NCBI GenBank assembly: GCA_040752275.1
Contig: JBFMFH010000121.1
Span: 10,849-74,848, forward strand
Source of the DNA: Acidobacteriota bacterium
Lineage (GTDB): Bacteria; Acidobacteriota; Vicinamibacteria; Vicinamibacterales; JAKQTR01
Direction of reading: 5' to 3'
Length of the DNA: 64,000 bases
The position numbers were made by a program, and so were the translations under genes. The notes under the pieces were generated by a model. That model was given only the letters and a program-made list of their open reading frames with translations. It had not been told where the DNA came from and did not search any database. Each line of letters starts with the position of its first letter. Within the stretch, counting starts at the first letter, position 1. Shown here piece after piece: positions 27,898 to 47,314 of this stretch.

Positions 27898-27927
27898 ACG
27901 ATACGGTCTTGCGAGCCAATATGTCAA
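27898..27927 (-). promoter_or_regulatory. Candidate sigma-70 promoter (TTGACA-N18-TATCGT) inside an AT-rich island upstream of the TauE-aprBA string
   Basis: On the minus strand, TTGACA is the complement of 27922-27927 and TATCGT the complement of 27898-27903. The local GC drop is read directly. No experimental support. Confidence 0.25.
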
Positions 27928-28094
27928 GTATTTCGTTGAGCTTACGAGCGCTCCTGTATAGTCGATAGACTAACTGGCTCAATAGCCCCTTCGCTCGTGT
28001 GCTGGTGCGGAATCGTCTCTCGAACTGGCCCCGCACGCGCAGGGCCAGCGTGGCCAAATCCCTAGTCGCGAAGTCGGCAATTAGGTCGACGCAC

Positions 28095-28433: not shown

Positions 28434-28459
28434 GACCACGTTCTCCTCCGCCGCCAACG

Positions 28460-29485: not shown

Positions 29486-29506
29486 GGCGTTCTCCGTCGC
29501 GCGCTG

Positions 29507-29812
29507 CTATTCCCGGGAGTGGCGTTTTTCGAGGTCGAGGCCGATGGCACTCACCGCCACGTCCATCACCCAGCCGAGGAACAGACCGAGGATGGCCGTC
29601 AGGCCGACCGCAAAGATCGTGAACAGGAGCCGGTCGGTGTTGTACAGGTTGGCGACAAACAGGTTGAATCCCGACAGGTTCCGGGTGTCCGCCACGTGCA
29701 CGAGCTTGCCGGCCTTCTCGGCCGGCGCCGCCTCGAGGAGCGCGGGGTGGAGGGAGACCAGGACGCATGAGACCCAAAGCGTCAGCTGTGCCCGAAGCGA
29801 GCAAGGCGTCAT
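29507..29812 (-). CDS. Small signal-peptide plus C-terminal-TM protein, trio copy A (paralogue of 60915..61238)
   Basis: The likely start MTPCSLRAQLTLWV at 29812 has GGAGGT 7 nt upstream. Shares KLVxVADTR....NxYNT and a C-terminal TM helix with the other copy. Confidence 0.6.
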   Translation of the reverse strand: MTPCSLRAQLTLWVSCVLVSLHPALLEAAPAEKAGKLVHVADTRNLSGFNLFVANLYNTDRLLFTIFAVGLTAILGLFLGWVMDVAVSAIGLDLEKRHSRE

Positions 29813-29909
29813 CGCGGTACCTCCGGTCGGAATCACACCCACGGGCCGGGGAGCGATTGCCCGTGGCGGCAGGGGGCGCGCCAGAGTCAGGGCCCGGGCG
29901 CGTTCACGG

Positions 29910-30007: not shown

Positions 30008-31069
30008 GTGCTAATGTGGCGGCACGGAAGGGGGTCCGCATTGCCTCCGACTGACGAGTTTCCGCGTCTCGTCCGCGCCGAGTTCAGGTTCCCGGTGCGC
30101 AGTCTGATCGGCGCTGTCGCCTCAATCCCCCTCGCGTTCCTGGCCGTGACGCTGGTGCTCCTGGTTGGCGATCTCGGCATCGGCCACTGGACCATTGCGG
30201 CGATCGTCTCGCTCGGTCTGGTCGTGTCATACGTCGTGGCGGCCACCGTCACGCGCCGGATTGCGCGGCGCCTCCTTGAACTCGAACGCCAGCGGGACGC
30301 CTTCTATCAGGAGTTCTCGCGGCTGTCGAAGGCCGCCTCGCTCGGCGAGATTGCCTCCGGCGTGGCCCACGACATCAACAATCCCCTGGCGGTCATGAAC
30401 GAGGAGGCGGGCTGGCTGCGCGATCTGCTGGGCGGCCCCGGCCTCGACCGCGAGTCGACGCGGCAGGAGTTTGCAGCATCGGTCGAGCAGATCGGCGTTC
30501 AGATCAAACGGGCCAGCAGCGTGACCAGGCGCCTGCTCCATTGGGCGCGCGACATGACCCGCCCGTCGGACGTCATCGACGTGAACCCCCTGCTGACGCG
30601 GACCCTCTACCTGCTGGAGGGGGAACTCACCTCCGCCGACGTGCGGGTCGTGACCCGGCTCGACCCGAAGCTGCCGAAGGCGGTCGGCAGCGAGGCGGAG
30701 ATCACCCAGGTGCTGCTGCACCTCATGAAGAACGCTCTCGACGCGATGAAGGGCGGTGGCGGGACGCTGACCATCACGACTGACCGGTTCGACGGTCTGG
30801 TGCGCGTCGGCATCGCCGATACGGGGCCCGGCATTCCGCCGGAGCTCGTCGCGCGTATCTTCGAACCGTTCTTCACGACGAAGCCCGTGGGCGAGGGCGC
30901 CGGCCTCGGCCTGGCCATCAGCGCGTGGATCGTCCAGCGCGCCGGCGGCCACATCGCGGTGGACAGCGTCCCCGGGTCGGGCGCCACGTTTCATGTCACG
31001 CTCCAGCCTGCAGGTGTGAGCGCAGAACACGGAGGAGAGGATGAGGGTCGTGCGGCTGTTGCTCGTTGA
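30008..31069 (+). CDS. Membrane-anchored histidine kinase (2 TM, no obvious extracytoplasmic domain; HisKA + HATPase_c), HK-1
   Basis: H-box SGVAHDINNPLAV. G-boxes IADTGPGIP and GEGAGLGLAIS. AGGAGG lies 8 nt upstream of the GTG at 30008. Confidence 0.85.
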   Translation: MLMWRHGRGSALPPTDEFPRLVRAEFRFPVRSLIGAVASIPLAFLAVTLVLLVGDLGIGHWTIAAIVSLGLVVSYVVAATVTRRIARRLLELERQRDAFYQEFSRLSKAASLGEIASGVAHDINNPLAVMNEEAGWLRDLLGGPGLDRESTRQEFAASVEQIGVQIKRASSVTRRLLHWARDMTRPSDVIDVNPLLTRTLYLLEGELTSADVRVVTRLDPKLPKAVGSEAEITQVLLHLMKNALDAMKGGGGTLTITTDRFDGLVRVGIADTGPGIPPELVARIFEPFFTTKPVGEGAGLGLAISAWIVQRAGGHIAVDSVPGSGATFHVTLQPAGVSAEHGGEDEGRAAVAR

Positions 31070-31448
31070 CGACGAGGCACGGTTCGTCGAGACGCTGTCG
31101 AAGCGCCTGACCTCCCGTGGGTACTACGTTGAGAAGGCCCTCTCGGGCCAGGAGGCGCTCGACTTGGTGACGAGCCGGCCCTTCGACGTCATGCTCCTCG
31201 ACGTGCGCATGCCGGGCATGGACGGGCTCGAGACGCTCCGCGCCGTGCACAGGCTGCAGCCCCTGGTGAAGGTGATTCTCCTGAGCGGGCACGCGTCGAT
31301 CAACGCTGCCGTTGAGGGCATGCGTTTGGGGGCGTACGACTACCTGCTCAAGCCGACGGACCTCGAGGACATCCTGGCCAAGGTCGAAGCGGCGTTCGAA
31401 AAGAAGCGCCTGGAAGAGGAGCAGCAGGGCGATTGGCGCCAGCCTTGA
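31041..31448 (+). CDS. Receiver-only response regulator, RR-1
   Basis: 135 aa. LLLVDDE, the phospho-acceptor context MLLDVRMPGMDG, and DYLLKP. No output domain. Confidence 0.88.
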   Translation: MRVVRLLLVDDEARFVETLSKRLTSRGYYVEKALSGQEALDLVTSRPFDVMLLDVRMPGMDGLETLRAVHRLQPLVKVILLSGHASINAAVEGMRLGAYDYLLKPTDLEDILAKVEAAFEKKRLEEEQQGDWRQP

Positions 31449-31461
31449 GGGCGGGGCGCGT

Positions 31462-34122
31462 GTGGTGTCGGGCTCTCTGGGAGTAGCCATCGTGGGTCTG
31501 ACGACGCTCGTGCGCAAGCTGTTCGGCCGCGATCAGTGGCGGCCGCTCATCGCCCAGCGCGATACGAAGGCCGCGCTGCGCCTCTCGTACCTCGCATTCA
31601 AGGACCTCATCACCTCGAACGACGAGCTGCTCGAAATCGTGGCCGACATCGAGCAGAAGCTGGAGACGGGCTCCCCCTTCGGGATGACCTACGTCCGGTT
31701 CCGGGCCGTCGCCTGCGCGACCCACACCTACCGGATGATTCTCTGCCTGGACAAGCTGTCCGCCCGGCGGTACCAAGAACTGCATTTCGTCTTTGCGGGC
31801 ATCCAGAAGGCCATCGAGCCCCTGCTCTCCGGCACCCGTCCCGCCCACGCCACGTGTCCGCTCGTCCTTCGTCTGTCGGACATCGACGCCACCAGTGCAG
31901 ACGACGCCGGCGGCAAGGCGGCGAACGTGGCCGAGGTGCGCAACCGGGCGAGGCTGCCGGTCCCCGACGGGTTCGTCGTGTCGACGACGGCCTTCGCCGC
32001 CTTCCTGGCTCACGAACAGCTCGGCGAGGACATTCGCGCGAAGCACGACGGCCTGGCGCCCGACGACCAGCAGTCCCTCCACGACGTGAGCGAAGAGCTG
32101 CAGGCGCTCATTTCGGCGCACCGCGTGCCCGGCCGCCTCGTGCAGTCCATCCTGGGCGCCTACGACGATCTCGCCGCCCGTTGTGGCACCAACCCGCGCG
32201 TGTCGGTGCGATCGAGCGCCGTGGGAGAGGACGGCGAGTTCTCCTTCGCAGGGCAGTACACCAGCGTATTGAACGTGGGGCGCGACGGCCTCGTCGATGC
32301 CTACCGCCGGGTGGTGGCCAGCCTCTATACGCCGCGCGCCATCTTCTACCGGGCGATACACGGCATCCCGGACGAACAGGCGGCCATGGCCGTGCTGTGC
32401 ATGGTACAGATCGACTCGGTCGCCAGCGGCGTGGCCTGTTCGGTCGACCCGGGCCGGCCGGACGCAGGCACGCTGCTCATCACGGGGGCCTGGGGCCTCG
32501 GCATCACGACCGTCGGGGGGTCGGTCAGCCCCGACGTGTGGGAGGTGGCGCGCGCGGCGGGTACGCCCGTTCTTCGCGCCCGCCTCGGCGTCAAGGACAC
32601 GCGCGCCGACGCCAGTCCGGAGGGGGGCGTCGGCTTTCTCGAACTGCCGGAGTCCGTCACGTCGACCTACTGTCTCACCGACACCCAGGTGCGCGACCTG
32701 GCGGCCATCGTCCTCGCGGCCGAGGCCCACTACGGCAAGCCACAGGAGGTGGAATGGGCCCTGGACCGGGCCGGCCGCTTCGTCCTGCTGCAATCGCGGC
32801 CGCTGCACGTCCGCGCCGTCCCGGCAGCCGTGACCGATCTCGACGGCCACGCGGACGGGCATGCCCTGATTCTTACGGGGGCGTCGGCCTCGGCGGGGTG
32901 CGCGTCGGGGCCCGTCTACCACATGTCCGAGTCGGACGACACGTCGCGGTTCCCCGACAGGGCAGTGCTCGTGGCCCGGCACTCGTCGCCCAAGTACGTC
33001 AAGGTGATGGCGCGCGCGGCGGCCATCATCACGGACATCGGGGCCACCACCGGCCACATGGCCTCGCTAGCCCGGGAGTTCGGGGTGCCCGCCGTGCTCG
33101 ACACGCGGTCCGCGACGACGACGCTCGAGCCGGGACAGGTCGTCACGGTCGATGCCAACCGGGGGGCGGTCTACGAGGGACGGGTCGACTGCCTGTTGTC
33201 GGGCTCGGCGGCAGCACCGGCCCGGACGATGACAGGTACACCGACCTATGCGATCCTCCGCCAGGTGGCGGATCGCATCGCGCCCTTGACGCTGACCGAT
33301 CCGAAGAGCGTGAGCTTCCGGCCCGATCAGTGTCGTACCTTCCACGACATCGCCCGCTTCGCCCATGAGAAGGCCTTCGGCGAGATGTTCAGGATGAGCG
33401 ATCGCGTGGCCGACGTGTCGCATCGAGCCGTCAGGCTGGCGGAGCGGCTGCCCTTCGAGCTCCATCTGATCGACATCGGCGGCGGCATTGCCCAGAGTTC
33501 CCCAGGCGAGCCCGCGGTCAGGGCGGCGGCGATCGTGTCGGAGCCGATGGCGGCTCTGCTGCGGGGCATGATGAACCCGCAGCTGCGCTGGTGGGAGCCG
33601 CGGGGCATCTCGCTCTCCGGCTTCTTCGCGGTGGCGACCGAGGCGATGATGAACCCGGCCCACGATGCGGACCAGCGCCGATTGGGCGACAAGAGCTACG
33701 CGATCGTCGCCGAGTCGTACTGCAACTTCAGCTCGCGCATCGGCTACCATTTCGCCGCCGTGGATGCGTACTGTACCGATTCGCTCTCCAGGAACTACGT
33801 GAGCTTCCGTTTCAAGGGCGGCGCCGCCGATGACGCCCGGCGTGCGCGGCGTTGCGCCCTCATCGGGGAGGTCCTCAAGAAGCTCGACTTCCAGACCGAC
33901 CGCCGGGGCGATCTGGTGAACGCCCGCCTCCGCAAGTACCCGCGCGAGGCGCTTCTGGAACGCCTCGATCTGGTCGGCCGGCTCATCGTCGCCACCAGAC
34001 AGCTCGACATGCGGATGGGACGCGGCACTCCGGTTGATTGGTTCGTCCAGGCGTTCTTCGCCGGCAACTACCTCTTCGACCCGGAGCAGGGCCGGGCCGC
34101 GGCCGGAGGGTCTCCGCCGTGA
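31462..34122 (+). CDS. Atypical PpsA-like protein PpsL-1: novel N-domain + PPDK_N ATP-grasp + swivel phospho-His domain + novel C-domain
   Basis: GGKAANVAEV..LPVPDGFVV, VSVRSSAVGEDGEFSFAGQY, and swivel ITDIGATTGHMASLAREFGVPAV with the His codon at 33055-33057. The C-terminal ~300 aa show no PEP-utilizer TIM-barrel motifs. The start (GTG at 31462/31465) is approximate. Confidence 0.8.
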   Translation: MVSGSLGVAIVGLTTLVRKLFGRDQWRPLIAQRDTKAALRLSYLAFKDLITSNDELLEIVADIEQKLETGSPFGMTYVRFRAVACATHTYRMILCLDKLSARRYQELHFVFAGIQKAIEPLLSGTRPAHATCPLVLRLSDIDATSADDAGGKAANVAEVRNRARLPVPDGFVVSTTAFAAFLAHEQLGEDIRAKHDGLAPDDQQSLHDVSEELQALISAHRVPGRLVQSILGAYDDLAARCGTNPRVSVRSSAVGEDGEFSFAGQYTSVLNVGRDGLVDAYRRVVASLYTPRAIFYRAIHGIPDEQAAMAVLCMVQIDSVASGVACSVDPGRPDAGTLLITGAWGLGITTVGGSVSPDVWEVARAAGTPVLRARLGVKDTRADASPEGGVGFLELPESVTSTYCLTDTQVRDLAAIVLAAEAHYGKPQEVEWALDRAGRFVLLQSRPLHVRAVPAAVTDLDGHADGHALILTGASASAGCASGPVYHMSESDDTSRFPDRAVLVARHSSPKYVKVMARAAAIITDIGATTGHMASLAREFGVPAVLDTRSATTTLEPGQVVTVDANRGAVYEGRVDCLLSGSAAAPARTMTGTPTYAILRQVADRIAPLTLTDPKSVSFRPDQCRTFHDIARFAHEKAFGEMFRMSDRVADVSHRAVRLAERLPFELHLIDIGGGIAQSSPGEPAVRAAAIVSEPMAALLRGMMNPQLRWWEPRGISLSGFFAVATEAMMNPAHDADQRRLGDKSYAIVAESYCNFSSRIGYHFAAVDAYCTDSLSRNYVSFRFKGGAADDARRARRCALIGEVLKKLDFQTDRRGDLVNARLRKYPREALLERLDLVGRLIVATRQLDMRMGRGTPVDWFVQAFFAGNYLFDPEQGRAAAGGSPP

Positions 34123-36686
34123 GGATCGAGACGCTGGCCGACCGGCTGCGATCGCTGCGCCGCGCACCCCGGGTGCGGGCGGGCGTCCGGGAGAAGTACG
34201 CCGCCCTGAGCAGGCTCACCGCAGCCAACAACGCGGCGCTGGAGCTCGTCGCGGATCTCCAGCGCTCGGCCACCGGCGAGTTCGTCTTCGATGCCAACTA
34301 CCTGCGTACGGCGTCGGATCGGGCCCTGGCTTACGGGCGCGAGGTCGTCGAGGCGCTCGATATTCTGTCGGACGGACGTGAGCGCAGGCTCGGCGCGCTT
34401 CTCGAGCGCCTGTCCGCCGAGATCGGAAACGTGCTGCGTGACGACCGAAGCATCCCGGAGGGTCCCTACGTCCTCGACTTCAGCCGGATGAAGGGGGTCC
34501 CGGCGGACCTGCTCGGGGCCAAGGTGCGGCGCCTCGCGGAAATCCGCCTCGACGTGGGCGTGCCGGTGCCCGACGGCTTCGCCGTCACGAGCGCGGCCTG
34601 TCACGCGCTGCTGGTTCAGTCCGGATTGTGGGCGTCGATCCAGGCCACCATCCGCAGCCTCACGCTAATCGACAAGGCACGCCTGGCCCGCGCCAGCGGC
34701 GACATCCGAGCCCGCATCCTCGACACGCCGTGGCCTCGGGCCGTGGCGGCCGCCGTCCTCGAGGCATACGATGGGCTCGTCGCGCGGGCCGGACGCGAGT
34801 CGCCGCTGGTGTCGGTGCGGTCGAGCGCCGCCGACGAGGACGGCGAGTTCAGCTTCGCGGGCCAGTACGTCTCGGTCCTGAACGTCGACCGGAGCCGCCT
34901 CTTGCAGGCGTGCAGTGAGGTCGTTGCCAGTCAGTTCGGACCGCGCGCGGTCGTCTACTACAAGTCCCGGGGCCTCGAGAGCGCCCACCACCCCATGGCG
35001 ATCGGCATCGTGCTGATGATCGACGCCCTCGCGAGCGGCGTGCTCTACACCCGGTCTCCCGAGCGGCCAGGCGAGCAGACGATGCTCATCACCGGCACGT
35101 GGGGTCTCGGCCCGTCCACGGCTGACGGTACCGTAAGCCCCGACGTCATCCGTGTGTCGGCGAGACCCGGGCACGATATCGTCAGCTCGACCATCGCCCT
35201 CAAGCCTCGCATGCTGCTCACCCGCGAGGGCGGAGGCGTCATCGAGGTCGACGTGCCGGGCTGGATGCGCGAGCAGCCGTGCCTGACCCGGGCGCAGGTC
35301 GGGATGCTCGCGGCGTACGGATCGCGCCTCGAACGTCACTACGGCGGTCCTCAGGACGTCGAGTGGGCGGTCGACCGGGCTGAGCGGGTCCTGGTGCTGC
35401 AGTCACGCCCGCTGCGCACCGAGGAGCCACGTGCCTCGGCTCCGCTCCACGAACTGCGCAAGGGCCTGCCTCTGTTGCTCTCCGGCGGCATCATCGCGTC
35501 GACGGGCGTTGCTGCCGGGCCCGTTTCCGTGGTGGACGACACCGGGCCCTTCGACGTGCCGGCGGGAGCCGTGGTCGTGTCGCGGGCTGCGGTGCCGGCT
35601 CTCGCCGAAGTCGCGGATCGCGCGTCGGCCTTCGTGACCGAGGTCGGGTCGGTCGCCTGCCACCTGGCCACCGTGGCGCGCGAGTTCCGCATCCCGACCA
35701 TCGTCAACGCGGATGGCGCCAGGGCCGCGCTCAGGCCCGGTCAGGTCGTGACGGTCGACGCCGAGATGGGCCACGTCTACGAGGGGCGCATCGACGCGCT
35801 CCTGGCACTGACCGGAGCCAGGCAGCCCGATCGCGCGATGCTGCAGAGTCCGCTGTTCCGCAGGCTGGGATCGGTCCTGTCTCTCCTGGCGCCCCTGCAC
35901 CTGACCGATCCGAGGAGCCGGGACTTCAAGGCGTCCGGCTGCCAGACGCTGCACGACCTGCTGCGCTACGCGCACGAACGGGCCGTGCAGGAGATGTTCG
36001 TCGCGGGAGGCGAAGTGGCCGAGCTCGGCGCGTCCGTGAAGCTGGCCAGCGATCTGCCGCTCGACTTCTTCCTGGTGGACTTGGGCGGCGGCCTGGCGGG
36101 TGCGGGAGACGAGGACACCGTGACGCCGGAGGCGTTCCGCTGCCGACCGCTCCGGGCGATCTGGGCGGGGCTCGTCGCTGCGCCGTGGGCCGGTGGACCG
36201 GCTGTGGGCTTGGCGAGCCTGGGCTCTCTCCTCGTCACCGGCCTCTCGCGCCGCGAGCCGGCCGGCGGGCCTGAGGCCAACTACGTGCTCGTCACGGATA
36301 GCTACGTGAACATCAGCTTCCGGTTCGGGTTCCACTTCGCCCGAATCGACGCGTCGCTGTCGCAGGACTTCCGGACGAACTACGCCAGCGTGGTGTTTCA
36401 CGGAGGAGCCGCCGGCGCAGGCGGCCGCGAGCGGCGGCTGGACTTCATCGCCGGCGTGCTCGCCTCACGTCCGTGGACCGTCAGCCGCCGCGGCGACGCG
36501 CTGTTCGGTCGGGCGGACAACCTGCCGGACGCGGAGCTGTCGAAGGAACTCGAGACGCTCGGCCGTCTGCTGGTCGTGACGCGGCAGCTCGACACCAGAC
36601 TCGCCGACGACGAGGCGACGGCGCGTGCCGTGGCAGCGTTCGGCGCGGGCGATGACAGCCTGGGCCTCGACGTCACGGACGCGTGA
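34119..36686 (+). CDS. Atypical PpsA-like protein PpsL-2 (tandem paralogue)
   Basis: The GTG at 34119 overlaps the PpsL-1 stop (GTGA). LGAKVRRLAEI..VPVPDGFAV, VSVRSSAADEDGEFSFAGQY, and swivel TEVGSVACHLATVAREFRIPTI with the His codon at 35661-35663. Shares the C-domain motifs. Confidence 0.8.
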   Translation: MRIETLADRLRSLRRAPRVRAGVREKYAALSRLTAANNAALELVADLQRSATGEFVFDANYLRTASDRALAYGREVVEALDILSDGRERRLGALLERLSAEIGNVLRDDRSIPEGPYVLDFSRMKGVPADLLGAKVRRLAEIRLDVGVPVPDGFAVTSAACHALLVQSGLWASIQATIRSLTLIDKARLARASGDIRARILDTPWPRAVAAAVLEAYDGLVARAGRESPLVSVRSSAADEDGEFSFAGQYVSVLNVDRSRLLQACSEVVASQFGPRAVVYYKSRGLESAHHPMAIGIVLMIDALASGVLYTRSPERPGEQTMLITGTWGLGPSTADGTVSPDVIRVSARPGHDIVSSTIALKPRMLLTREGGGVIEVDVPGWMREQPCLTRAQVGMLAAYGSRLERHYGGPQDVEWAVDRAERVLVLQSRPLRTEEPRASAPLHELRKGLPLLLSGGIIASTGVAAGPVSVVDDTGPFDVPAGAVVVSRAAVPALAEVADRASAFVTEVGSVACHLATVAREFRIPTIVNADGARAALRPGQVVTVDAEMGHVYEGRIDALLALTGARQPDRAMLQSPLFRRLGSVLSLLAPLHLTDPRSRDFKASGCQTLHDLLRYAHERAVQEMFVAGGEVAELGASVKLASDLPLDFFLVDLGGGLAGAGDEDTVTPEAFRCRPLRAIWAGLVAAPWAGGPAVGLASLGSLLVTGLSRREPAGGPEANYVLVTDSYVNISFRFGFHFARIDASLSQDFRTNYASVVFHGGAAGAGGRERRLDFIAGVLASRPWTVSRRGDALFGRADNLPDAELSKELETLGRLLVVTRQLDTRLADDEATARAVAAFGAGDDSLGLDVTDA

Positions 36687-36695
36687 GGAACCGGT

Positions 36696-38525
36696 ATGCG
36701 GTGGGATCACAATCGGCGCATCGTTCCCCTGGTCGGCATGGTCGCGGCGGCGGCGCTGCTCGTGGCGGCCTTCATCCAGGGACTGCTGTCCTTCGGCCAG
36801 GTGCGAGGCGTCGTCGCGGAGGAGTTCAACGCCCAGCAACTCGTGCTCGCGCGGAACCTGTCGATGTTGATCCGCCAGGACCTGAGCTTCCTGGAACGGG
36901 AGCTGCTGGTCTTGAGCCAGCTGCCCTGCACCGGGAACGCCGCGCCCGCATGGGCCAGCCGGATGCGCAACGCGATGACGTCCATCGGAGACGGGAAGGT
37001 GATCGACGTCCGCTGCATCGACGCGTCCGGTACCACCGCGCGGATCGTGGCGGCCTCCGGGGAGGAGCGCATCGAGCAGTCTGACTTCGTGTCGGCCGCG
37101 CCGTTCGAGTGGGCCATGCACCCCGGACGGCGTGGCGAGGTACTGGTCGTACCCTCGCGACAGCCGGTCGGGCTGGCACAGCACGAACTGACGCTGATCA
37201 TGGCGACCGGGCAGTACTCGCCTCCCGTGGGGCCCGAGGGCCCGAAGCCCCCTGCCCCCGCGGGCGTCATCATGTTCGCGGTGGACGCGCCCGCGCTCGC
37301 GCGGCGGTTCACGGCCGAGGCGAGGTCCGGGACGACCGGCTACGCATGGGTCATCGATGACGAGGGGATCTTCCTGGCGCACCCGATGGCGGATTTCATC
37401 GGCAAGAACGCCTTCACCGCCCGGCACGAGCGGGATCCACACCTCGGGTTCGAGGGCATCAACGTCATCATGCGCGACCACATGCTGCGCGGCGAGGAAG
37501 GCGTGGGCGAATACGAGTCCGGGTGGCACCGCCAGGAAGTAGGGCCGGTGCAGAAGCTGATTGGCTACAGTCCGATCCGGCTCGGGCCGACGAGGTCGGC
37601 GTTGAGGTGGTCCGTGGCGGTCGTGGCCCCGACGAGCGAGGTCCAGGGCATGGTCCGCGCGCTGTTCCTGCGCCAGTTGTTCGTGCAGTCCGCCATCGCG
37701 CTCGCCATCCTGGCGGGCAGCGTCTCGCTGCTGCGCCGCGAGCGGTACTGGTCGCAGCTGCAGAAACAGAAGGAACGGCAGATCAACTTGAACTCGCGTC
37801 TCGCGGCCCTGGGCACGCTGGCGGCCGGCGTCGCCCACGAAGTCAACAACCCGATTGCCATTATCCTCGGGTTCACGGACCTCCTGCGCGAGCAGACGCC
37901 GAAGGACTCACCTTCGTCGGAGCCGCTCGAGATCATCGAACGGCAGGCCACGGCCTGCAAGCGGATCGTCGAGAACCTCGGGCGATTCGCCCGCGGGCCG
38001 GCCGGGGGCGGTGAAACCACGGATCTGAATGTCGAACTGCAGCGGGTACTGGCCATCGTGGGCAATACGCTGCTCACCGAGAAGATCCAGTGCGCGCTCG
38101 ATCTCGAGGAGTCCGTGCCACTCGTGCGCGGCGACCCGCAGGGCATCCAGCAGGTTCTGCTGAACCTGATCACCAACGCGCGTGCGGCCATGAAGTCGGG
38201 CGGCACGCTGACCCTGCGGACGAGGCGGGAGGGTGGATCCGTGCGAATGGAGATCTCGGACACCGGTCATGGGATTCCGTCACCGGTCCTCGAGCGCATC
38301 TTCGATCCGTTCTTCACCACCAAGGCGGCGGGCGAAGGTACGGGCCTGGGGCTGTTCATCAGCCACGGCATCATCCAGGAAGCCGGCGGCACGATGGCCG
38401 TCGAGAGCCGGGCAGAAACGGACGTCGGCCGGGCCGAGTCCGGCACGACCGTCCGGGTGTCGCTGCCGGTAGCGCCGTCCTCGGAGGGCGCCGACTCGGG
38501 GCAAGCCGGTCCAGCCGGAAAGTGA
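36696..38525 (+). CDS. Sensor histidine kinase with a periplasmic Cache/PDC-like domain (tentative), HK-2
   Basis: TM1, then a ~280-aa extracytoplasmic region (GYAWVIDDEGIFLAHP...WSVAVVAP), then TM2. H-box AGVAHEVNNPIAI and HATPase_c (ISDTGHGIP, GEGTGLGLFIS). Confidence 0.85.
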   Translation: MRWDHNRRIVPLVGMVAAAALLVAAFIQGLLSFGQVRGVVAEEFNAQQLVLARNLSMLIRQDLSFLERELLVLSQLPCTGNAAPAWASRMRNAMTSIGDGKVIDVRCIDASGTTARIVAASGEERIEQSDFVSAAPFEWAMHPGRRGEVLVVPSRQPVGLAQHELTLIMATGQYSPPVGPEGPKPPAPAGVIMFAVDAPALARRFTAEARSGTTGYAWVIDDEGIFLAHPMADFIGKNAFTARHERDPHLGFEGINVIMRDHMLRGEEGVGEYESGWHRQEVGPVQKLIGYSPIRLGPTRSALRWSVAVVAPTSEVQGMVRALFLRQLFVQSAIALAILAGSVSLLRRERYWSQLQKQKERQINLNSRLAALGTLAAGVAHEVNNPIAIILGFTDLLREQTPKDSPSSEPLEIIERQATACKRIVENLGRFARGPAGGGETTDLNVELQRVLAIVGNTLLTEKIQCALDLEESVPLVRGDPQGIQQVLLNLITNARAAMKSGGTLTLRTRREGGSVRMEISDTGHGIPSPVLERIFDPFFTTKAAGEGTGLGLFISHGIIQEAGGTMAVESRAETDVGRAESGTTVRVSLPVAPSSEGADSGQAGPAGK

Positions 38526-38537
38526 GGTCACAACACC

Positions 38538-38948
38538 GTGGGCGAGACGATTCTTGTTCTCGATGACGAACTCGACATGCTGCGGCTGCTGGAGACGATC
38601 ATCACCAGCCGCACCGGCCACTCGGTCGTCACGACCAACAATCCCCTTGAGCTGGAGGATCTGATGGCAGCCAGCCCGCCGTCGCTCGTGATCTCCGATC
38701 TGAAGATGCTCGGGCGGGACGGCCTGGAAGTGATCGAGACGGCACACCGGATCGATCCGACCCTGCCGGTTGTCATCATCACGGCGTACGGCAGCCTCGA
38801 ATCGGCGGAAGAGGCGATCCGCCAGGGCGCGTACGACTACATCACCAAGCCCTTCCGAAAGGAACAGGTGCTGATTGCGATCGAGCGGGCGCTCGAATGG
38901 CGGCATCTCACGCGGGAGAACCTGCGGCTGAAACAGGGGACCGCGTGA
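38538..38948 (+). CDS. Receiver-only response regulator, RR-2
   Basis: 136 aa. ILVLDDE, LVISDLKMLGRDG, DYITKPF. No output domain. Confidence 0.85.
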   Translation: MGETILVLDDELDMLRLLETIITSRTGHSVVTTNNPLELEDLMAASPPSLVISDLKMLGRDGLEVIETAHRIDPTLPVVIITAYGSLESAEEAIRQGAYDYITKPFRKEQVLIAIERALEWRHLTRENLRLKQGTA

Positions 38949-39116
38949 GGCGAGGTCCCCGTCCTCAAGACTCGCGGCCCAGCGGAGGACGGCCGCTGCT
39001 GCGGGGATGAAGACCCGAGGCTCAACCAACGAGGCACGCGCGAGGAGGCGGGGTCGTCTGACCCGGAGCCTGTGGTAGGATGCCCTCGATCGGTGGCCCC
39101 CGGACGGAGCGGACTC

Positions 39117-39515
39117 ATGGTGAATTCACCGCTACGGGTGCTGGTCATCGACGACGAGGCGATCGTCGGCAAGCGCCTGCTACTGGCCCTGACTGACAGC
39201 GGGTATGACGTGGAGGTGTTTGTCGATCCGAAGCAGGCGCTGGGCCGACTGGCAGAACGTTCGTTCGACATCGTCGTGACCGACGTGCGCATGCAGGACG
39301 TCGACGGCATTCAGATTCTCGAAGCCGTGGCCGCCCAATCGCCCGCCACCAAGGTGATCATGATCACGGCCTATGCGACCATCGAGGTTGCCCACGAGGC
39401 CATCGCGAAGGGTGTGTTCGACTTCATCCCGAAACCGTTCAAGGTCAGCGAGTTCTTGGACGTGATGTCGAAGGCGTCGGCAGCCATTCGTGCGGAATCG
39501 CCCGCGCCCGTCTGA
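39117..39515 (+). CDS. Receiver-only response regulator, RR-3
   Basis: Internal start MVNSPLRVLVIDDE at 39117. IVVTDVRMQDVDG, DFIPKPF. No output domain. Confidence 0.82.
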   Translation: MVNSPLRVLVIDDEAIVGKRLLLALTDSGYDVEVFVDPKQALGRLAERSFDIVVTDVRMQDVDGIQILEAVAAQSPATKVIMITAYATIEVAHEAIAKGVFDFIPKPFKVSEFLDVMSKASAAIRAESPAPV

Positions 39516-39572
39516 TCATGCGAGTGATGTGCCGGCGTCGCGGCAGCCAGCGACCGCCGGCCCCAGGGGGCC

Positions 39573-41186
39573 ATGGCACACAACGTGCGGGCACCGGACG
39601 CCTCTACGACGCCGGCCCTGGACGCGCACCCGGTGTCCGGCGCGGCTGAGTTCGCCGATGCCATCCCGTCGGCTGACGACCGGCTGCAGGAAGCCGCACG
39701 GCGCGCCCTCCTCGAGCGTCCGAGTGTCAGCATTCGCGCCAGGATCGCCCTCGCCTTCTTGCTGCTGCTGGCGTTGAGCGGCGGGAGCGTGCTGGCCTCC
39801 TGGTTCTTGCTCTCCCAGGCACAGCGGAAGCTCGATCTGCTCGTCGTCGTGGATCGCCTGACCATCGAAGTGCAACAGGCCCGGCGCTTCGAGAAGAACT
39901 ACCTGCTGTACGGCACGAACCTGGCGGACGCCCTCGAGCACGCGCGCCAGGCCAGTGAGTTGCTGGCTGCCCACCTGGCGGGTGGCGAACGGGATCCGGC
40001 CCTGAGCGAGCGTACGCTGGCCACACTGGCGCGCGACCTCGGCCAGTACGAGGATCTGCTCACGTCACTGGCTCGTGGAGCCCACGACCCGACAGTATCG
40101 ACGGCGGCGCAGGACCGCGATGAGTTGGTTGCGCGCGTCCGGGACCGCGGCGCGCGCACGACCTCCGATGTCCTCCAGATGGCCGCTGACGAACGCCGTT
40201 CGGTCCAGGACACACTCAACGTCGCGAAGCGGATTCCCCTCGTGCTGCTTGCGGTCACCCTTGTGCTGGCCGTGTATGTCGCCAACTTCCTCGGCCGCCA
40301 GATTGTCGGACCGCTCACCCGCTTCGTCGACGTCACGCAACGGATTGCCTCCGGCGACTTCACGCCGCTGATGCCGGCCCGCCGCTATCGCGACGAATTC
40401 TCGAATCTGTCGCTCGCCATCAACCGCATGCTGCAGGAACTCGAACACCGCTACCAGGTCATGGTCGAGTCCCACAAGCTCCGCGCGGTCGGGACGCTGA
40501 CGGCCGGTATCGCGCACGAACTGAACAACCCGCTCAACAACATCACGCTCACCGCGTCGACGCTGAGGCAGTTCCACTCCAAGCTCGACGAGCCGCAGCG
40601 CCTCGAGATGCTGGACGAGCTCGTGGCCGAGGCCGATCGATCCCAGAAGATCGTCCGCAACCTGCTCGACTTCACACGGCAGACCGAAACGGCGATCGAA
40701 CCGTTGAACCTGCGCAGCCTGATTCAGGACGTGGTCGGTCTTGCGCAGAACCAAGTGAAGCTGCATGGGTGCACGCTGGAGCTCCACGTCCCCCCTGACC
40801 TGCCGGCCATCCACGGGGATCGCAACCTGCTTCGCCAGGTGTTCCTGAACCTGCTGCTCAACGCGCTGGATGCCATCGACAAGGGCGGCCGGATCCAGGT
40901 CACGGCCGACGCCGGTCGCGAGCCTGGCTTTGTCGTCACCGATGTGGCCGACAACGGCACAGGGATCCCGCCGCACATGATCGGAGCGATCTTCGATCCG
41001 TTCTTCACCACGAAGGCGACCGGCAAGGGAACCGGCCTTGGCCTGTCGATGTCCAGGGGTATCGTGCGGCAGCACGGTGGCGACATCCGGGTCCGAAGCA
41101 GGCCCGGGGCAGGCTCGACCTTCAGCGTCCTGCTGCCGTCCACGCAAGTGGAGGCACAGATCCCAGCTGGCGCTCGCGTCCCGTAG
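39573..41186 (+). CDS. Histidine kinase with a helical extracytoplasmic domain, HAMP, HisKA and HATPase_c, HK-3
   Basis: Two TM helices. HAMP (GPLTRFVDVTQRIASGDFTP). H-box AGIAHELNNPLNN. VADNGTGIP, GKGTGLGLSMS. Confidence 0.85.
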   Translation: MAHNVRAPDASTTPALDAHPVSGAAEFADAIPSADDRLQEAARRALLERPSVSIRARIALAFLLLLALSGGSVLASWFLLSQAQRKLDLLVVVDRLTIEVQQARRFEKNYLLYGTNLADALEHARQASELLAAHLAGGERDPALSERTLATLARDLGQYEDLLTSLARGAHDPTVSTAAQDRDELVARVRDRGARTTSDVLQMAADERRSVQDTLNVAKRIPLVLLAVTLVLAVYVANFLGRQIVGPLTRFVDVTQRIASGDFTPLMPARRYRDEFSNLSLAINRMLQELEHRYQVMVESHKLRAVGTLTAGIAHELNNPLNNITLTASTLRQFHSKLDEPQRLEMLDELVAEADRSQKIVRNLLDFTRQTETAIEPLNLRSLIQDVVGLAQNQVKLHGCTLELHVPPDLPAIHGDRNLLRQVFLNLLLNALDAIDKGGRIQVTADAGREPGFVVTDVADNGTGIPPHMIGAIFDPFFTTKATGKGTGLGLSMSRGIVRQHGGDIRVRSRPGAGSTFSVLLPSTQVEAQIPAGARVP

Positions 41187-41194: not shown

Positions 41195-42298
41195 TCAGGA
41201 CCCGGCCCTCGGCACGAGGGTCCGGCTCCCCGAGATGGCGGCCTGGACCGCTAGGCGCTGGCGGTGCGCCTTGACGACCAGCGTCAGGATCATCGCCAGT
41301 CCGGCGAGTCCCGCCGCAAAGAGCAGGCCCTTGCTCACGGCATTCAGGTAGGCGTCCGCGCCCGCATCCAGGGACACCATGCCGAGATGGTGCAGGTAGA
41401 TCGGGATGGCGACGGCACGACTCAGCACACACACGAGGATGACCACGGCTGTCACGAGCCGAATCATCACTTGGCGTACGATCTTGGTGCCGTAGGTACC
41501 GACGAAGATCCCAAAGAGCGACCCGGCGTAGAGCAGCAGTGTCAGCCGGATGTCCACCATCCCCTGCCAGGCATAGCTGAGGCAGCCGAACCCACCCATG
41601 AACATCGCGAGGTAGAGTTCCGTGCCTGCCGCAACGGCCGTTGGCACCCCGAACAGGTAGATCATCGCCGGCACGCCCAGGAACCCGCCGACGCCGATCG
41701 TGCCCGCCATGTACCCGACCGCCAGGCCAATGATGAGGATCAACCACAGGGACACGCGGGTCTCCGACACCCGGAAGTGGATGATCGGCGGCAGGCTGAG
41801 GTTCGATAGGACCGACGCCAGTCGCGATGCCTGTGCCTCCCGGCCCCTCAGCGTCCGCCACACTTCGTGCATGACCGAGGCCCCAACCACCGAGAGGACG
41901 GTGACGAACACGACGCTGATGTACAGATCGCCGGCGGCGCTCCCCGACGATCCTCCGTGCCCATCCCCCCCCGCGTCGAAGAGTCGCGTGTTCACCCAGA
42001 CCGCGAACTGGATCCCGATGAAGCTCGTGGCGATCATGAACGCGGCCAGCCGGTGATCGACATGCCCGAGCTCGCAGTGCTTGCGCGATCCAACGAGGGC
42101 CTTGCCGAACTTGTGGGTGATGTTGCTGCCGACGGCAATGATCCCCGGGACGCCGAGGTTCATCATGCCAGGGGTCATGAAGAAGGCTCCCCCGCTGCCG
42201 ATGAATCCGGAGAGGACGCCCCCAATGAAGCCCAGGGCGATCACTTGCAGTACCGCGCTCACATCCAGCGCGATGAAGCCGTCAAGACCGGTGAGCAT
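41195..42298 (-). CDS. TauE/SafE (TSUP) permease, long subfamily, third member
   Basis: Real start MLTGLDGFIAL at 42298 within track ORF 41195..42739. GFIGSGGAFFMTPGMM and GTIGVGGFLGVPAMIYLFG repeats. The central loop motif IHFRVSETRVSLW resembles IVTFDVAQVRCSMW and IHFPASGMTCSLW in the other long copies. Confidence 0.8.
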   Translation of the reverse strand: MLTGLDGFIALDVSAVLQVIALGFIGGVLSGFIGSGGAFFMTPGMMNLGVPGIIAVGSNITHKFGKALVGSRKHCELGHVDHRLAAFMIATSFIGIQFAVWVNTRLFDAGGDGHGGSSGSAAGDLYISVVFVTVLSVVGASVMHEVWRTLRGREAQASRLASVLSNLSLPPIIHFRVSETRVSLWLILIIGLAVGYMAGTIGVGGFLGVPAMIYLFGVPTAVAAGTELYLAMFMGGFGCLSYAWQGMVDIRLTLLLYAGSLFGIFVGTYGTKIVRQVMIRLVTAVVILVCVLSRAVAIPIYLHHLGMVSLDAGADAYLNAVSKGLLFAAGLAGLAMILTLVVKAHRQRLAVQAAISGSRTLVPRAGS

Positions 42299-42369
42299 GG
42301 GAGGTTCTCCAAGCGCATCCGCAATCCTGGCCCGGGTGAGTGCCGTCGCACCATGCGCCGGGCCGTCGA

Positions 42370-47278: not shown

Positions 47279-47314
47279 CGCCGCTGTTCTCCTTCGCACT
47301 CCGTCCCAACCACA

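What the first reader, a model, noticed from the sequence alone, without database searches (positions are those of the whole stretch)
30008..41186. Two-component network with no output domains: every response regulator is receiver-only
RR-1, RR-2 and RR-3 here, and RR-4 and RR-5 elsewhere in the block, are 128-145-aa stand-alone receivers. Their phospho-acceptor Asp context is intact (DxxMPGMDG-like), and they have the NtrC-type D(Y/F)(L/I)xKP motif. No HTH, AAA+, GGDEF or other effector domain is encoded anywhere in the 64 kb. The kinases have NtrB-like H-boxes (AHE(I/L/V)NNP). The output must therefore be protein-protein. The only conserved neighbours available as targets are the PpsL proteins, whose novel N-terminal domain could dock a phospho-receiver, and the TSUP/CK-like proteins.
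Basis: partly seen in the sequence, partly recalled or inferred. Interest (0 to 1): 0.7.

Follow-up and report, generated by a model that had tools for sequence, protein, structure and literature searches.

The report
Receiver-only regulators beside sulfate-transport genes
Five small signalling proteins with no DNA-binding part sit with four sensor kinases in a sulfur-anion transport block of a sulfate-reducing Acidobacterium, and because the same set recurs in many sulfate reducers it probably controls neighbouring proteins directly rather than through gene expression.

Summary
The window (a MAG of Acidobacteriota, with dsr/apr/sat/qmo genes on its left half) encodes four HisKA kinases and five response regulators of 128-145 aa. 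All five are receiver-only and keep every catalytic residue. No HTH, AAA+ or GGDEF domain occurs in the 64 kb.

It is not a local oddity. Around 80 PpsL homologues from other genomes, 145 of 185 receiver domains are receiver-only.

The receivers fall into two classes.
- Class A (RR1, RR4, RR5; 'TGH' motif) never carries a DNA-binding output.
- Class B (RR2, RR3) is the receiver type of NtrC/DctD sigma-54 activators. Such activators sit in about 30% of related loci but are missing here.

The cytidylate-kinase-like protein is fused to a class-A receiver in more than 100 protein clusters, and CK3-RR5 here is the split form.

HK4-RR4 matches the Cache-kinase/regulator pair found next to SulP and DASS sulfate transporters in Syntrophobacteraceae. 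A similar cluster was described in 2025, with its regulators called 'WalR type'.

Nothing supports docking on the PpsL N-domain or PpsL-to-receiver phosphotransfer.

Verdict: a real, conserved and only partly described signalling set. It is a new variant of a known kind, of moderate interest.

The parts
30008..31069 (+). HK1. A sensor-less membrane histidine kinase: two TM segments, HisKA and HATPase_c. H-box AHDINNP.
   Evidence: Pfam; H-box.
31041..31448 (+). RR1. Class-A stand-alone receiver of 135 aa ('LLSGH'). It overlaps the end of HK1 by 29 nt and ends 13 nt before PpsL1.
   Evidence: Pfam. Residues. The 120 closest protein clusters are all 127-142 aa with PF00072 only.
31462..34122 (+). 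PpsL1. A dikinase-like protein: N-terminal helical bundle, PPDK_N ATP-grasp, PEP-utilizers His domain and a C-terminal domain of about 300 aa of unknown fold. The start codon is uncertain.
   Evidence: Pfam; alignment.
34038..36686 (+). PpsL2, a paralogue of PpsL1. 34038 is the start of the ORF. The true start is probably near 34100, at the PpsL1 stop, but was not pinned down.
   Evidence: Pfam; alignment; one search showed that 34110 is not a start codon.
36696..38525 (+). HK2. Histidine kinase with a dCache_1 sensor. H-box AHEVNNP.
   Evidence: Pfam.
38538..38948 (+). RR2. Class-B receiver of 136 aa ('IITAY') with a DctD/NtrX-like linker tail (…TRENLRLKQ).
   Evidence: Pfam. PDB matches run to residue 133. 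Nearest relatives include receivers of full activators at 48-50% identity.
39117..39515 (+). RR3. Class-B receiver of 132 aa (147 aa if it starts at the GTG at 39072).
   Evidence: Pfam.
39573..41186 (+). HK3. Histidine kinase with a HAMP domain and an N-terminal region of about 230 aa. H-box AHELNNP.
   Evidence: Pfam.
41195..42300 (-). TauE/TSUP permease. The start is approximate.
   Evidence: Pfam.
42380..42395 (-). Candidate sigma-54 -24/-12 element TGGCACGGCTGTTGCG, about 80-130 nt upstream of this TauE gene.
   Evidence: one mismatch to the consensus. The window as a whole is not enriched for such sites (24 found, 21.9 expected).
42370..43923 (-). CK1. Cytidylate-kinase-like protein of 517 aa with a long C-terminal extension that ends in hydrophobic helices.
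   Evidence: Pfam; alignment.
46472..47299 (-). CK2. Cytidylate-kinase-like domain plus BON domain.
   Evidence: Pfam.
47315..49933 (-). PpsL3.
   Evidence: Pfam; alignment.
50104..51804 (-). Membrane protein of the YeiH family (putative sulfate exporter family).
   Evidence: Pfam; NCBIfam.
52147..54711 (+). PpsL4. It was the query for the family analysis. Its catalytic His511 is invariant.
54704..56386 (+). HK4. dCache_1 histidine kinase whose ATG overlaps the PpsL4 stop codon. It is the counterpart of the kinases found next to SulP sulfate transporters.
   Evidence: Pfam. It is 34-35% identical over its full length, E about 1e-113, to the L083-L085 kinases.
56427..56813 (+). RR4. Class-A receiver of 128 aa. 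Its stop codon overlaps the GTG start of PpsL5.
   Evidence: Pfam. Orthologues keep the order PpsL-HK-RR-PpsL in L001, L002, L004 and L005.
56810..59353 (+). PpsL5.
   Evidence: Pfam.
59379..59828 (-). p149. A small putative lipoprotein that is conserved downstream of TauE.
   Evidence: HMM scan; sequence with a lipobox-like segment.
59856..60887 (-). TauE/TSUP permease.
   Evidence: Pfam.
60915..61238 (-). Small membrane protein resembling the DVU0150 family. Its ATG overlaps the RR5 stop codon.
   Evidence: NCBIfam DVU0150_fam, E 2.7e-16, below the curated cut-off. The orthologue in L002 carries PF28216..
61235..61672 (-). RR5. Class-A receiver of 145 aa with no adjacent kinase, directly downstream of CK3.
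   Evidence: Pfam. Among the window receivers it is the best match to the receiver half of the CK-REC fusions.
61766..62572 (-). CK3. Cytidylate-kinase-like domain plus BON domain. With RR5 it forms the split form of the CK-REC fusion.
   Evidence: Pfam.
25942..29842 (-). Left-hand transporter modules, in coordinate order: Alph_Pro_TM protein (25942-26808), TauE (26789-27712), a p149-like protein (28098-28508), TauE (28460-29485) and a DVU0150-like protein (29507-29842).
   Evidence: Pfam; HMM scan.

Best explanation
This is the acidobacterial version of a signalling set that sulfate reducers keep next to sulfur-oxyanion transporter genes.

Four HisKA kinases phosphorylate small receivers. Two have periplasmic dCache sensors, one has a HAMP domain, and one has no sensor domain.

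The class-A receivers (RR1, RR4, RR5) are a dedicated stand-alone family. They act by binding proteins encoded beside them. The best-supported partner is the cytidylate-kinase-like/BON protein, which in other bacteria is fused to exactly this receiver class. CK3 plus RR5 is the split form of that fusion. The CK-like domain has a degenerate P-loop, so it is more likely a ligand-binding switch than an enzyme. Second-rank partners are the PpsL dikinases and the DVU0150-like/TauE transporter modules, to which RR1, RR4 and RR5 are translationally coupled.

The class-B receivers (RR2, RR3) are NtrC/DctD-type receiver-plus-linker modules without the ATPase and DNA-binding parts. They most likely modulate phosphate flow from HK2 and HK3, as a sink or competitor or by pairing with a full activator encoded elsewhere.

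The net effect would be mainly post-translational control of sulfur-anion transport and handling in response to an external signal, plausibly sulfate.

Shown here: the domain architectures, the conservation of the set, the fusion, and the kinase/receiver orthology to sulfate-transporter clusters. Inferred: who binds whom, the signal, and the direction of regulation.
For: Architecture and intact catalytic residues.

Conservation: among 37 PpsL loci with full 10-kb flanks, 32 have receiver-only regulators (89 in all), 32 have kinases and 30 have TauE.

Class split: of the '[ST]GH' receivers, 113 are receiver-only, 2 are CK-REC fusions and none is an activator. Of the '[ST]A[YHF]' receivers, 19 are activator-like and 11 are receiver-only.

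The 120 closest clusters to RR1 are all 127-142 aa with PF00072 only.

Fusion evidence:
- Cytidylate_kin2 plus Response_reg is confirmed in L027 and L057 and in all 120 best clusters.
- The fused receiver is class A, and RR5 is its best match in the window (45-50% identity).
- The order CK, then RR, then DVU0150-like, then TauE is also kept in L002.

Coupling: the RR4 stop overlaps the PpsL5 start, the RR5 stop overlaps the DVU0150-like start, and RR1 ends 13 nt before PpsL1. In other loci a receiver is sandwiched between two PpsL genes (L028, L030, L056).

Link to sulfate transport:
- The CK-REC fusions sit in clusters of the form dCache-HK, RR, SulP, CK-REC, RR x3, CBS, DASS.
- HK4 and RR4 match that kinase/regulator pair.
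- 16 of 80 PpsL loci carry a DASS transporter.
- A published model proposes sulfate-sensing Cache kinases in such clusters (PMC11887813).
- TauE, its partner membrane protein and a 'PEP synthase' rise together under thiosulfate disproportionation (PMC13490349).

Class B is activator-like.
Against: No binding or phosphotransfer has been measured. Everything rests on architecture, synteny and fusion.

The fusion links receivers to the CK-like protein. It does not link them to PpsL or TauE.

The CK-like genes are in only 13 of 81 related loci within 10 kb, so they cannot be the partner of every receiver.

A transcription factor could lie in the 26 kb of contig that I could not read.

One good sigma-54-like site upstream of a TauE gene hints at activator-dependent transcription.

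The published description of the related Desulfobacteraceae clusters calls their regulators 'WalR type', that is, DNA-binding. I could not inspect those sequences.
Confidence: 0.45

Rival explanations
1. The real output is transcriptional, through a sigma-54 activator (NtrC-type or one-component) encoded outside the window. The stand-alone receivers are then only accessories: phosphate sinks, insulators or connectors that tune that pathway.
For: Full activators (Response_reg, Sigma54_activat and HTH_8) follow a kinase gene in 11 of 37 full-flank related loci. One of these is an Acidobacteriota relative, L004.

RR2 and RR3 are 45-50% identical to those activators' receivers.

One-component PAS-sigma-54 activators head the SulP/DASS clusters.

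In D. vulgaris the DVU0150-0146 operon is sigma-54 dependent under DVU0151 (PMC4641369).

A one-mismatch -24/-12 site lies upstream of the TauE gene at 42380-42395.
Against: No activator lies in the 64 kb.

26 of the 37 full-flank related loci have no activator within 10 kb, whereas 32 of the 37 have receiver-only regulators.

Class-A receivers are never found fused to AAA+ or HTH domains, but they are found fused to the CK-like domain.

Sigma-54-like sites are not enriched in the window.
Confidence: 0.25
2. Phosphorylated receivers dock on the novel N-terminal domain of the PpsL proteins and switch the dikinase on or off. On this view PpsL is the principal output.
For: There are five PpsL genes and five receivers in the window.

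RR1 and RR4 are translationally coupled to PpsL1 and PpsL5.

In related loci, 20 receiver-only genes have a PpsL gene as their next downstream neighbour on the same strand, and 9 as their upstream neighbour.

Receivers are sandwiched between two PpsL genes in L028, L030 and L056.
Against: The N-domain model is a generic three-helix bundle (pLDDT 84). Only N36, L40 and L79 are invariant, there is no conserved His, and there is no significant PDB match (best E 0.5).

No PpsL-receiver fusion appears among the 120 closest homologues, the 80 loci or the 150 best C-domain relatives.

The same kinase/receiver set occurs next to SulP and DASS transporters with no PpsL within 10 kb.
Confidence: 0.15
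3. The receivers are intermediates of a multi-step phosphorelay of the Spo0F type. They would pass phosphate via a His-phosphotransfer protein to a terminal regulator.
For: The Spo0F receivers are among the better PDB matches of RR1 and RR2. There are more receivers than kinases.
Against: The window has no HPt or Spo0B-like domain and no hybrid kinase. Hybrid kinases are rare in related loci (7 of 185 receiver domains).
Confidence: 0.05
4. PpsL~His phosphorylates the receivers directly, giving a kinase-independent relay driven by ATP.
For: PpsL keeps the catalytic His (H511 invariant). RR5 and some sandwiched receivers have no adjacent kinase.
Against: Kinases are the commonest upstream neighbours of these receivers: 70 cases on the same strand.

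The conserved C-terminal domain of about 290 aa carries many invariant polar and Arg residues. It looks like the acceptor-binding site, as the equivalent position is in other dikinases. That points to a small anionic substrate.

I know of no precedent for transfer from a swivel-domain His to a receiver Asp (own knowledge).
Confidence: 0.04

Closest known systems
Stand-alone (single-domain) response regulators that act by protein binding, such as CheY, DivK, CpdR and Myxococcus EpsW (PMC12802240)
   Same: They consist of a receiver domain only, keep an intact phosphorylation site and are usually encoded next to a kinase. Their output is binding to a protein.
   Different: There is no chemotaxis, cell-cycle or polysaccharide context here. 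Five receivers of two classes share one block, and the proposed partners (CK-like, PpsL, TauE modules) are all uncharacterised.
NtrC1/DctD/NtrX-type sigma-54 enhancer-binding response regulators
   Same: They are the best sequence matches of the receivers. RR2 keeps the linker helix. The kinases carry NtrB-like H-boxes. Full activators occur in related loci.
   Different: None of the five has the AAA+ sigma-54 domain or HTH_8.
CK-REC response regulators (Cytidylate_kin2 PF13189 plus Response_reg PF00072, about 410 aa). They are unnamed and are annotated only as 'response regulator' or 'CheY-like/cytidylate kinase'.
   Same: They share the CK-like domain, a BON-like segment and a class-A receiver. 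They sit in the same kinase and multi-receiver context.
   Different: In the window the two halves are separate genes (CK3 and RR5) 93 nt apart. CK1 and CK2 have no adjacent receiver.
Sulfate-transporter gene clusters with Cache-domain kinases, many two-component systems and CBS proteins in Desulfobacteraceae (Sci Adv 2025, PMC11887813)
   Same: They have dCache kinases and many regulators next to sulfur-anion transporters in sulfate reducers. HK4 and RR4 match the kinase/regulator pair next to SulP in Syntrophobacteraceae.
   Different: The transporters here are TauE/TSUP and YeiH-like, not DASS or SulP. The window has no CBS protein, and PpsL is prominent. The paper calls the regulators 'WalR type' acting on promoters, whereas the ones I could read are receiver-only.
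Desulfovibrio vulgaris DVU0145-DVU0151 cluster
   Same: It combines a DVU0150-family small membrane protein, membrane proteins and lipoproteins and a response regulator (DVU0145) in one cluster. It responds to the syntrophic (sulfate-free) versus sulfidogenic lifestyle (PMC4265775).
   Different: There the operon is assigned to a sigma-54 activator, DVU0151 (PMC4641369). I did not inspect the D. vulgaris sequences, so the gene-by-gene correspondence is inferred.
PEP synthase, pyruvate phosphate dikinase and rifampicin phosphotransferase (for the PpsL proteins)
   Same: They share the ATP-grasp PPDK_N domain and the swivelling His domain. The PDB match covers residues 116-560.
   Different: PpsL has no PEP/pyruvate TIM barrel. 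It has an extra N-terminal helical bundle and a C-terminal domain of about 290 aa with no match in the PDB. Its domain order differs from that of rifampicin phosphotransferase.

Membership tests
Stand-alone (single-domain) response regulators | The receiver domain is the only domain in the polypeptide. | tested here: met
   Response_reg is the only family found in all five, at 128-145 aa. The 120 closest clusters to RR1 are also PF00072 only.
Stand-alone (single-domain) response regulators | Intact phospho-acceptor pocket: acidic pair, Asp, Thr/Ser, aromatic residue and Lys. | tested here: met
   Alignment.
Stand-alone (single-domain) response regulators | Phosphorylated by a cognate kinase, with output through protein binding. 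| not testable with these tools
   Only adjacency could be examined: HK1-RR1, HK2-RR2, RR3-HK3 and HK4-RR4. RR5 has no adjacent kinase.
NtrC-family sigma-54 enhancer-binding regulators | NtrC-like receiver domain. | tested here: met
   The best PDB hits are NtrC1, NtrX, DctD and NtrC. The best NCBIfam hit of RR5 is ntrC, over the receiver only.
NtrC-family sigma-54 enhancer-binding regulators | Central AAA+ sigma-54 interaction domain. | tested here: not met
   Sigma54_activat is found nowhere in the window. It is found in relatives from other loci.
NtrC-family sigma-54 enhancer-binding regulators | C-terminal Fis-type HTH. | tested here: not met
   HTH_8 is found nowhere in the window (same calls).
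CheY of chemotaxis pathways | Partnered with a CheA-type kinase and with CheW and chemoreceptors. | tested here: not met
   All four kinases are of the HisKA/HATPase_c type. The window has no CheA, CheW or MCP domain.
Spo0F-type phosphorelay intermediates | An HPt or Spo0B-like phosphotransferase and a terminal regulator that carries an output domain. | tested here: not met
   None is present in the 64 kb. The rest of the genome was not available.
CK-REC response regulators (PF13189 + PF00072) | The CK-like domain and the receiver lie in one polypeptide. | tested here: not met
   CK3 (61766-62572) and RR5 (61235-61672) are separate ORFs 93 nt apart.
CK-REC response regulators (PF13189 + PF00072) | The receiver is class A and the CK-like part is homologous. 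| tested here: met
   RR5 is 45-50% identical to the fused receivers. CK1, CK2 and CK3 are 30-32% identical to the CK half over about 265 aa.
Sulfate-transporter-associated Cache-kinase systems of sulfate reducers (PMC11887813) | Kinase with a periplasmic Cache sensor that is homologous across sulfate reducers. | tested here: met
   HK2 and HK4 have dCache_1. HK4 aligns over its full length to the kinases next to SulP. I made no direct comparison with the paper's own sequences.
Sulfate-transporter-associated Cache-kinase systems of sulfate reducers (PMC11887813) | Adjacent DASS or SulP sulfate transporter and CBS-domain proteins. | tested here: not met
   The window has no Na_sulph_symp, Sulfate_transp or CBS domain. 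TauE and YeiH-like proteins take their place.
PEP synthase / pyruvate phosphate dikinase (for PpsL) | ATP-grasp domain plus swivelling His domain with the catalytic His. | tested here: met
   PPDK_N and PEP-utilizers are found in all five paralogues. H511 is invariant.
PEP synthase / pyruvate phosphate dikinase (for PpsL) | C-terminal PEP/pyruvate-binding TIM barrel. | tested here: not met
   There is no PEP-utilizers_C hit. The C-domain model is a mixed alpha/beta fold with no PDB match.

The most novel reading that the evidence does not exclude
Sulfate reducers may carry a conserved signalling layer that has not been characterised experimentally. Cache-type kinases would sense external sulfur anions. 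A dedicated family of stand-alone receivers would then act directly on a pseudo-kinase-like nucleotide-binding switch (the CK-like/BON protein) and on a new class of His-dikinase (PpsL). This would set sulfate or sulfite transport and the cell's AMP/PPi economy post-translationally, without a transcription step. The block in this window, placed beside sat, apr, qmo and dsr genes, would be the most complete single-locus example.
Probability: 0.3. Interest if true: 0.75.

Novelty: new variant of a known kind. Interest (0 to 1): 0.5.

Why it matters
How sulfate reducers sense sulfate and regulate its uptake is poorly understood, although uptake limits sulfate reduction rates. The only published model for the related clusters assumes DNA-binding regulators.

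If the receivers are receiver-only and work through the CK-like protein, PpsL or the transporters, regulation would be fast and post-translational. It would also give first functional handles on three widespread families with no known role:
- PpsL (about 1,500 representative clusters),
- the CK-like/BON protein and its receiver fusion,
- the TauE companion proteins.

A practical point follows. Automatic names such as 'DNA-binding NtrC family response regulator', 'CpxR' or 'WalR type' are attached to these proteins even though they have no DNA-binding domain.

Tried and rejected
Extending the contig beyond the window: three exact-sequence look-ups (CK3, Sat, P0001) found nothing on record. The 26 kb outside the window stays unseen.

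Sigma-54 promoter scan: 24 sites against 21.9 expected, so no enrichment. I kept single sites only as leads.

Fold searches:
- The PpsL C-domain model (pLDDT 80) has no PDB match (best E 0.09, TM 0.22).
- The N-domain model (pLDDT 84) matches only generic helical hairpins (E >= 0.5). I therefore rejected the idea that it is an HPt- or DHp-like docking domain.

PpsL-receiver fusions: I looked in 120 close homologues, 80 loci and 150 C-domain relatives and found none. The longer variants carry an LMWPc domain or an unassigned extension of about 205 aa.

Rfam: no RNA family anywhere in the window.

Terminator and sigma-70 scan of 29.4-42.6 kb: counts were at chance level, with no convincing internal terminator. 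This is consistent with one eight-gene operon but does not prove it.

Chemotaxis and phosphorelay readings were rejected for lack of CheA/CheW and HPt domains.

My first GC3-based gene call missed dsrN and qmoC and put qmoC in the wrong frame. This was corrected.

Full report
**What the window is.** The window has 67% G+C, so raw ORF lists are useless. A third-position G+C filter plus Pfam scans of about 60 coding regions gave the gene map.

The left half, on the minus strand, is a dissimilatory sulfur locus. It holds hemA/hemC-like genes, sat, dsrN, dsrMKJOP-like genes, a DsrT-like RsbRD_N protein, a DsrL-like GltD homologue, dsrAB, qmoABC-like genes and aprBA.

From about 25.9 kb to 62.6 kb lies a block of repeated modules:
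- five 'PpsL' proteins (PPDK_N plus the PEP-utilizers His domain, with no TIM barrel);
- four TauE/TSUP permeases;
- three cytidylate-kinase-like proteins, two of them with a BON domain;
- a proton-pumping pyrophosphatase;
- a YeiH-family membrane protein;
- four histidine kinases and five response regulators.

PpsL4 and RR1 are 100% identical to proteins of an Acidobacteriota MAG on a 90-kb contig.

**Checking the observation.** The region 30008-41186 is one tightly packed run of eight genes on the + strand: HK1, RR1, PpsL1, PpsL2, HK2, RR2, RR3 and HK3. Gene overlaps or gaps are 13 nt or less, except 57 nt and about 125-170 nt around RR3. No convincing internal terminator was found.

RR4 and RR5 lie at 56427-56813 (+) and 61235-61672 (-). 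All five receivers are 128-145 aa and have Response_reg as their only domain. They keep the acidic pair, the acceptor Asp, the Thr/Ser, the aromatic switch residue and the Lys-Pro. The four kinases carry AH(D/E)(I/V/L)NNP H-boxes.

No HTH, sigma-54 AAA+, GGDEF, EAL, HD-GYP or HPt domain occurs in the 64 kb. The only candidates for nucleic-acid binding are an Ogr/Delta-type zinc-finger ORF at 23186-23461 and a sub-threshold HTH_28 hit in CK1.

Stand-alone receivers make up roughly 15-20% of bacterial regulators (my own knowledge). Five of five is therefore unlikely by chance, at about 3e-4.

**Is it a local oddity?** It is not. PpsL is a well-conserved family of about 850 aa, and its close homologues are 53-81% identical over the full length. 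A scan of one genome per species found at least 574 loci. Most are in Desulfobacterota (Desulfobacterales, Syntrophobacterales, Desulfobaccales, Desulfovibrionales). Others are in Acidobacteriota, Nitrospirota and a few other phyla.

I built profile HMMs from the window's own proteins and scanned all ORFs within 10 kb of PpsL in 80 such loci. Among the 37 loci with full flanks, 32 have receiver-only regulators (89 in all), 32 have kinases, 30 have TauE and 11 have a long regulator. Overall, 145 of 185 full receiver domains are receiver-only.

None of these loci carries dsr, apr or sat genes within 10 kb. The placement beside the sulfate-reduction genes is therefore special to this lineage.

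**Two classes of receiver.** Alignment and all-against-all comparison split the receivers by the residues after beta-strand 4.

Class A ('[ST]GH': RR1, RR4, RR5) accounts for 113 receiver-only proteins, 2 CK-like fusions and no activator. Class B ('[ST]A[YHF]': RR2, RR3) accounts for 19 activator-like proteins and 11 receiver-only ones. Pfam confirmed that the long class-B proteins are complete NtrC-type activators with Response_reg, Sigma54_activat and HTH_8. One is in an Acidobacteriota relative whose gene order is PpsL, HK, RR, PpsL, HK, activator, RR.

RR2 and RR3 are 45-50% identical to those activators' receivers. RR2 aligns to the DctD and NtrX receiver-plus-linker constructs up to its last residues. 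RR2 and RR3 are thus activator front ends without the ATPase and DNA-binding parts.

By contrast, the 120 closest database clusters to RR1 are all 127-142 aa with a receiver only. Many are named 'DNA-binding NtrC family' or 'OmpR family' regulator by automatic annotation.

**An effector domain after all.** Two loci encode a single protein with a cytidylate-kinase-like domain, a BON-like segment and a C-terminal receiver. A database search with one of them showed that this is a common architecture. All 120 best clusters carry PF13189 plus PF00072 at about 410 aa. They come from Syntrophobacteraceae, Desulforhabdus and also Acidobacteriota.

The fused receiver is class A, and RR5 is its best match in the window. 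In the window CK3 lies 93 nt upstream of RR5, and the order CK, RR, DVU0150-like, TauE is kept in the closest relative. CK3 plus RR5 is therefore the split form of a known fusion. This is the classic argument for a physical or functional partnership.

The Walker-A lysine is present in CK2 and CK3, is Arg in CK1, and is Glu in the fusions. The only solved relatives are two uncharacterised 'putative kinases'. I therefore read the CK-like domain as a ligand-binding switch rather than an enzyme. That reading is an inference.

**Link to sulfate transport.** The fusions sit in clusters of the form dCache-kinase, receiver, SulP(STAS), CK-REC, soluble mini-kinase, three receivers, CBS protein, two DASS transporters and Usp.

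HK4 aligns over its whole length, sensor included, to the kinase next to SulP (34-35% identity, E about 1e-113). RR4 is 49% identical to that kinase's regulator. In addition, 16 of the 80 PpsL loci carry a DASS transporter within 10 kb.

A 2025 paper on Desulfobacteraceae describes such clusters: DASS or SulP transporters, many two-component systems with Cache kinases, and CBS proteins. It proposes sulfate sensing, but it calls the regulators 'WalR type' acting on promoters (PMC11887813). I could not inspect the paper's own sequences. The receivers I could read in related clusters are receiver-only.

Two further reports fit a role in sulfur-anion handling. In Dissulfuribacter, a 'PEP synthase', a TauE-associated membrane protein and TauE are adjacent, and all three increase under thiosulfate disproportionation (PMC13490349). 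In D. vulgaris, the DVU0145-0150 cluster is up in sulfate-free syntrophic growth and is assigned to the sigma-54 activator DVU0151 (PMC4265775 and PMC4641369). That cluster holds a regulator, membrane proteins and lipoproteins, and DVU0150 gives its name to the family of the small protein next to RR5.

**PpsL as a target.** PpsL keeps the ATP-grasp domain and the catalytic His (H511 invariant). It matches PEP synthase only over residues 116-560.

The N-terminal 127 residues model as a three-helix bundle (pLDDT 84). Only three positions are invariant, there is no conserved His, and there is no significant structural match.

The C-terminal 287 residues model as a mixed alpha/beta domain (pLDDT 80) that is not a TIM barrel and has no PDB match. 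This domain carries many invariant Cys, His, Asp and Arg residues. That looks like the binding site for a small anionic acceptor. The C-domain family has about 1,490 representative clusters.

Variants are fused to an Alph_Pro_TM membrane protein, to a low-molecular-weight phosphatase domain, or to an unassigned extension of about 205 aa. None is fused to a receiver.

The evidence for a receiver-PpsL link is therefore positional only. The RR4 stop overlaps the PpsL5 start, RR1 ends 13 nt before PpsL1, and receivers are sandwiched between PpsL genes elsewhere. The same kinase/receiver set also occurs without PpsL.

**Most likely mechanism.** External signals, plausibly sulfur oxyanions, are sensed by the dCache and HAMP kinases. 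The sensor-less HK1 may instead report on a membrane partner.

Class-A receivers are phosphorylated and bind locus-encoded proteins. The CK-like/BON switch is the best-supported partner, and PpsL and the DVU0150-like/TauE modules rank second. Class-B receivers tune phosphate flow or interact with an activator encoded elsewhere.

Architecture, conservation, fusion and orthology are shown. Binding partners, the signal and the sign of regulation are inferred. I put 0.45 on this explanation. I put 0.25 on a mainly transcriptional output through an unseen activator, 0.15 on PpsL as the main dock, and about 0.05 each on a phosphorelay and on direct transfer from PpsL~His to a receiver.

**Novelty and interest.** Stand-alone receivers that act by protein binding are a known kind. 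The related sulfate-transporter clusters have been noticed in print.

What appears to be new:
- a dedicated, widely conserved class of receiver-only regulators tied to PpsL, TauE and CK-like genes;
- the CK-like domain recognised as a receiver output that is split here;
- the correction that these regulators lack DNA-binding domains.

I rate this a new variant of a known kind, with interest 0.5.

Noticed in passing
window 23186-23461 (-): A 91-aa ORF with an Ogr/Delta-like zinc finger (37 bits, above the Pfam cut-off). It lies between aprA and the CxxCxxCC/qmoA genes. It is the only candidate nucleic-acid-binding protein in the window.
   Followed up: no
window 53848-54708 (the PpsL4 C-domain) and the same region of PpsL1, 2, 3 and 5: The C-terminal domain of about 290 aa has many invariant Cys, His, Asp and Arg residues (C602, H606, D607, R610, H613, D649, the G651-G653 run, H738, D743, R769, R772, D792, D824). 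Its confident model has no PDB match, and its family has about 1,490 representative clusters. It is probably the acceptor site of an uncharacterised dikinase.
   Followed up: partly
L002 1-893; proteins P0236, P0229, P0235, P0254, P0258: PpsL occurs fused to other domains. One fusion is to an Alph_Pro_TM membrane protein (the companion of TauE). One is to an N-terminal low-molecular-weight phosphatase/ArsC-like domain. Several carry an unassigned beta-rich C-terminal extension of about 205 aa.
   Followed up: partly
window 42370-43923 (-), CK1: This CK-like paralogue is 517 aa. It has Arg in place of the Walker-A Lys. Its 240-aa extension has no Pfam hit and ends in hydrophobic helices, so the protein may be membrane-anchored.
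   Followed up: no
window 42380-42395 (-), 29911-29926 (+), 49949-49964 (-): Sigma-54-like -24/-12 elements lie upstream of a TauE gene (one mismatch), of HK1 and of PpsL3 (two mismatches each). Such sites are not enriched overall, so these are leads only.
   Followed up: partly
L083-L085, gene just downstream of the CK-REC fusion (e.g. L084 11248-11910): A soluble protein of about 220 aa with an H-box-like 'FTHEVKN' and weak similarity to the kinase cores of HK1 and HK4. It may be a mini-kinase or phosphotransferase dedicated to the CK-REC regulator.
   Followed up: no
L039 19465-20397; L050 1090-2034 (-): Some PpsL loci encode regulators made of a receiver plus CBS domains. This is a second non-DNA-binding output in the same neighbourhood.
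   Followed up: no
window 44219-46435 (-): A proton-pumping pyrophosphatase lies inside the block between CK1 and CK2, and the closest relative L002 has the same arrangement. Of all the related loci scanned, only L002 carries one within 10 kb.
   Followed up: no
window 5839-7290 (-) and 17694-18803 (-): dsrN (a CobB/CbiA-type amidase) and qmoC were missed or put in the wrong frame by the simple ORF and GC3 pass. They were recovered by a frame-wise GC3 profile.
   Followed up: yes
database annotations of RR1 and CK-REC homologues: Receiver-only proteins and CK-REC fusions are widely labelled 'DNA-binding NtrC family response regulator', 'OmpR family … CpxR' or similar, although they have no DNA-binding domain.
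   Followed up: yes
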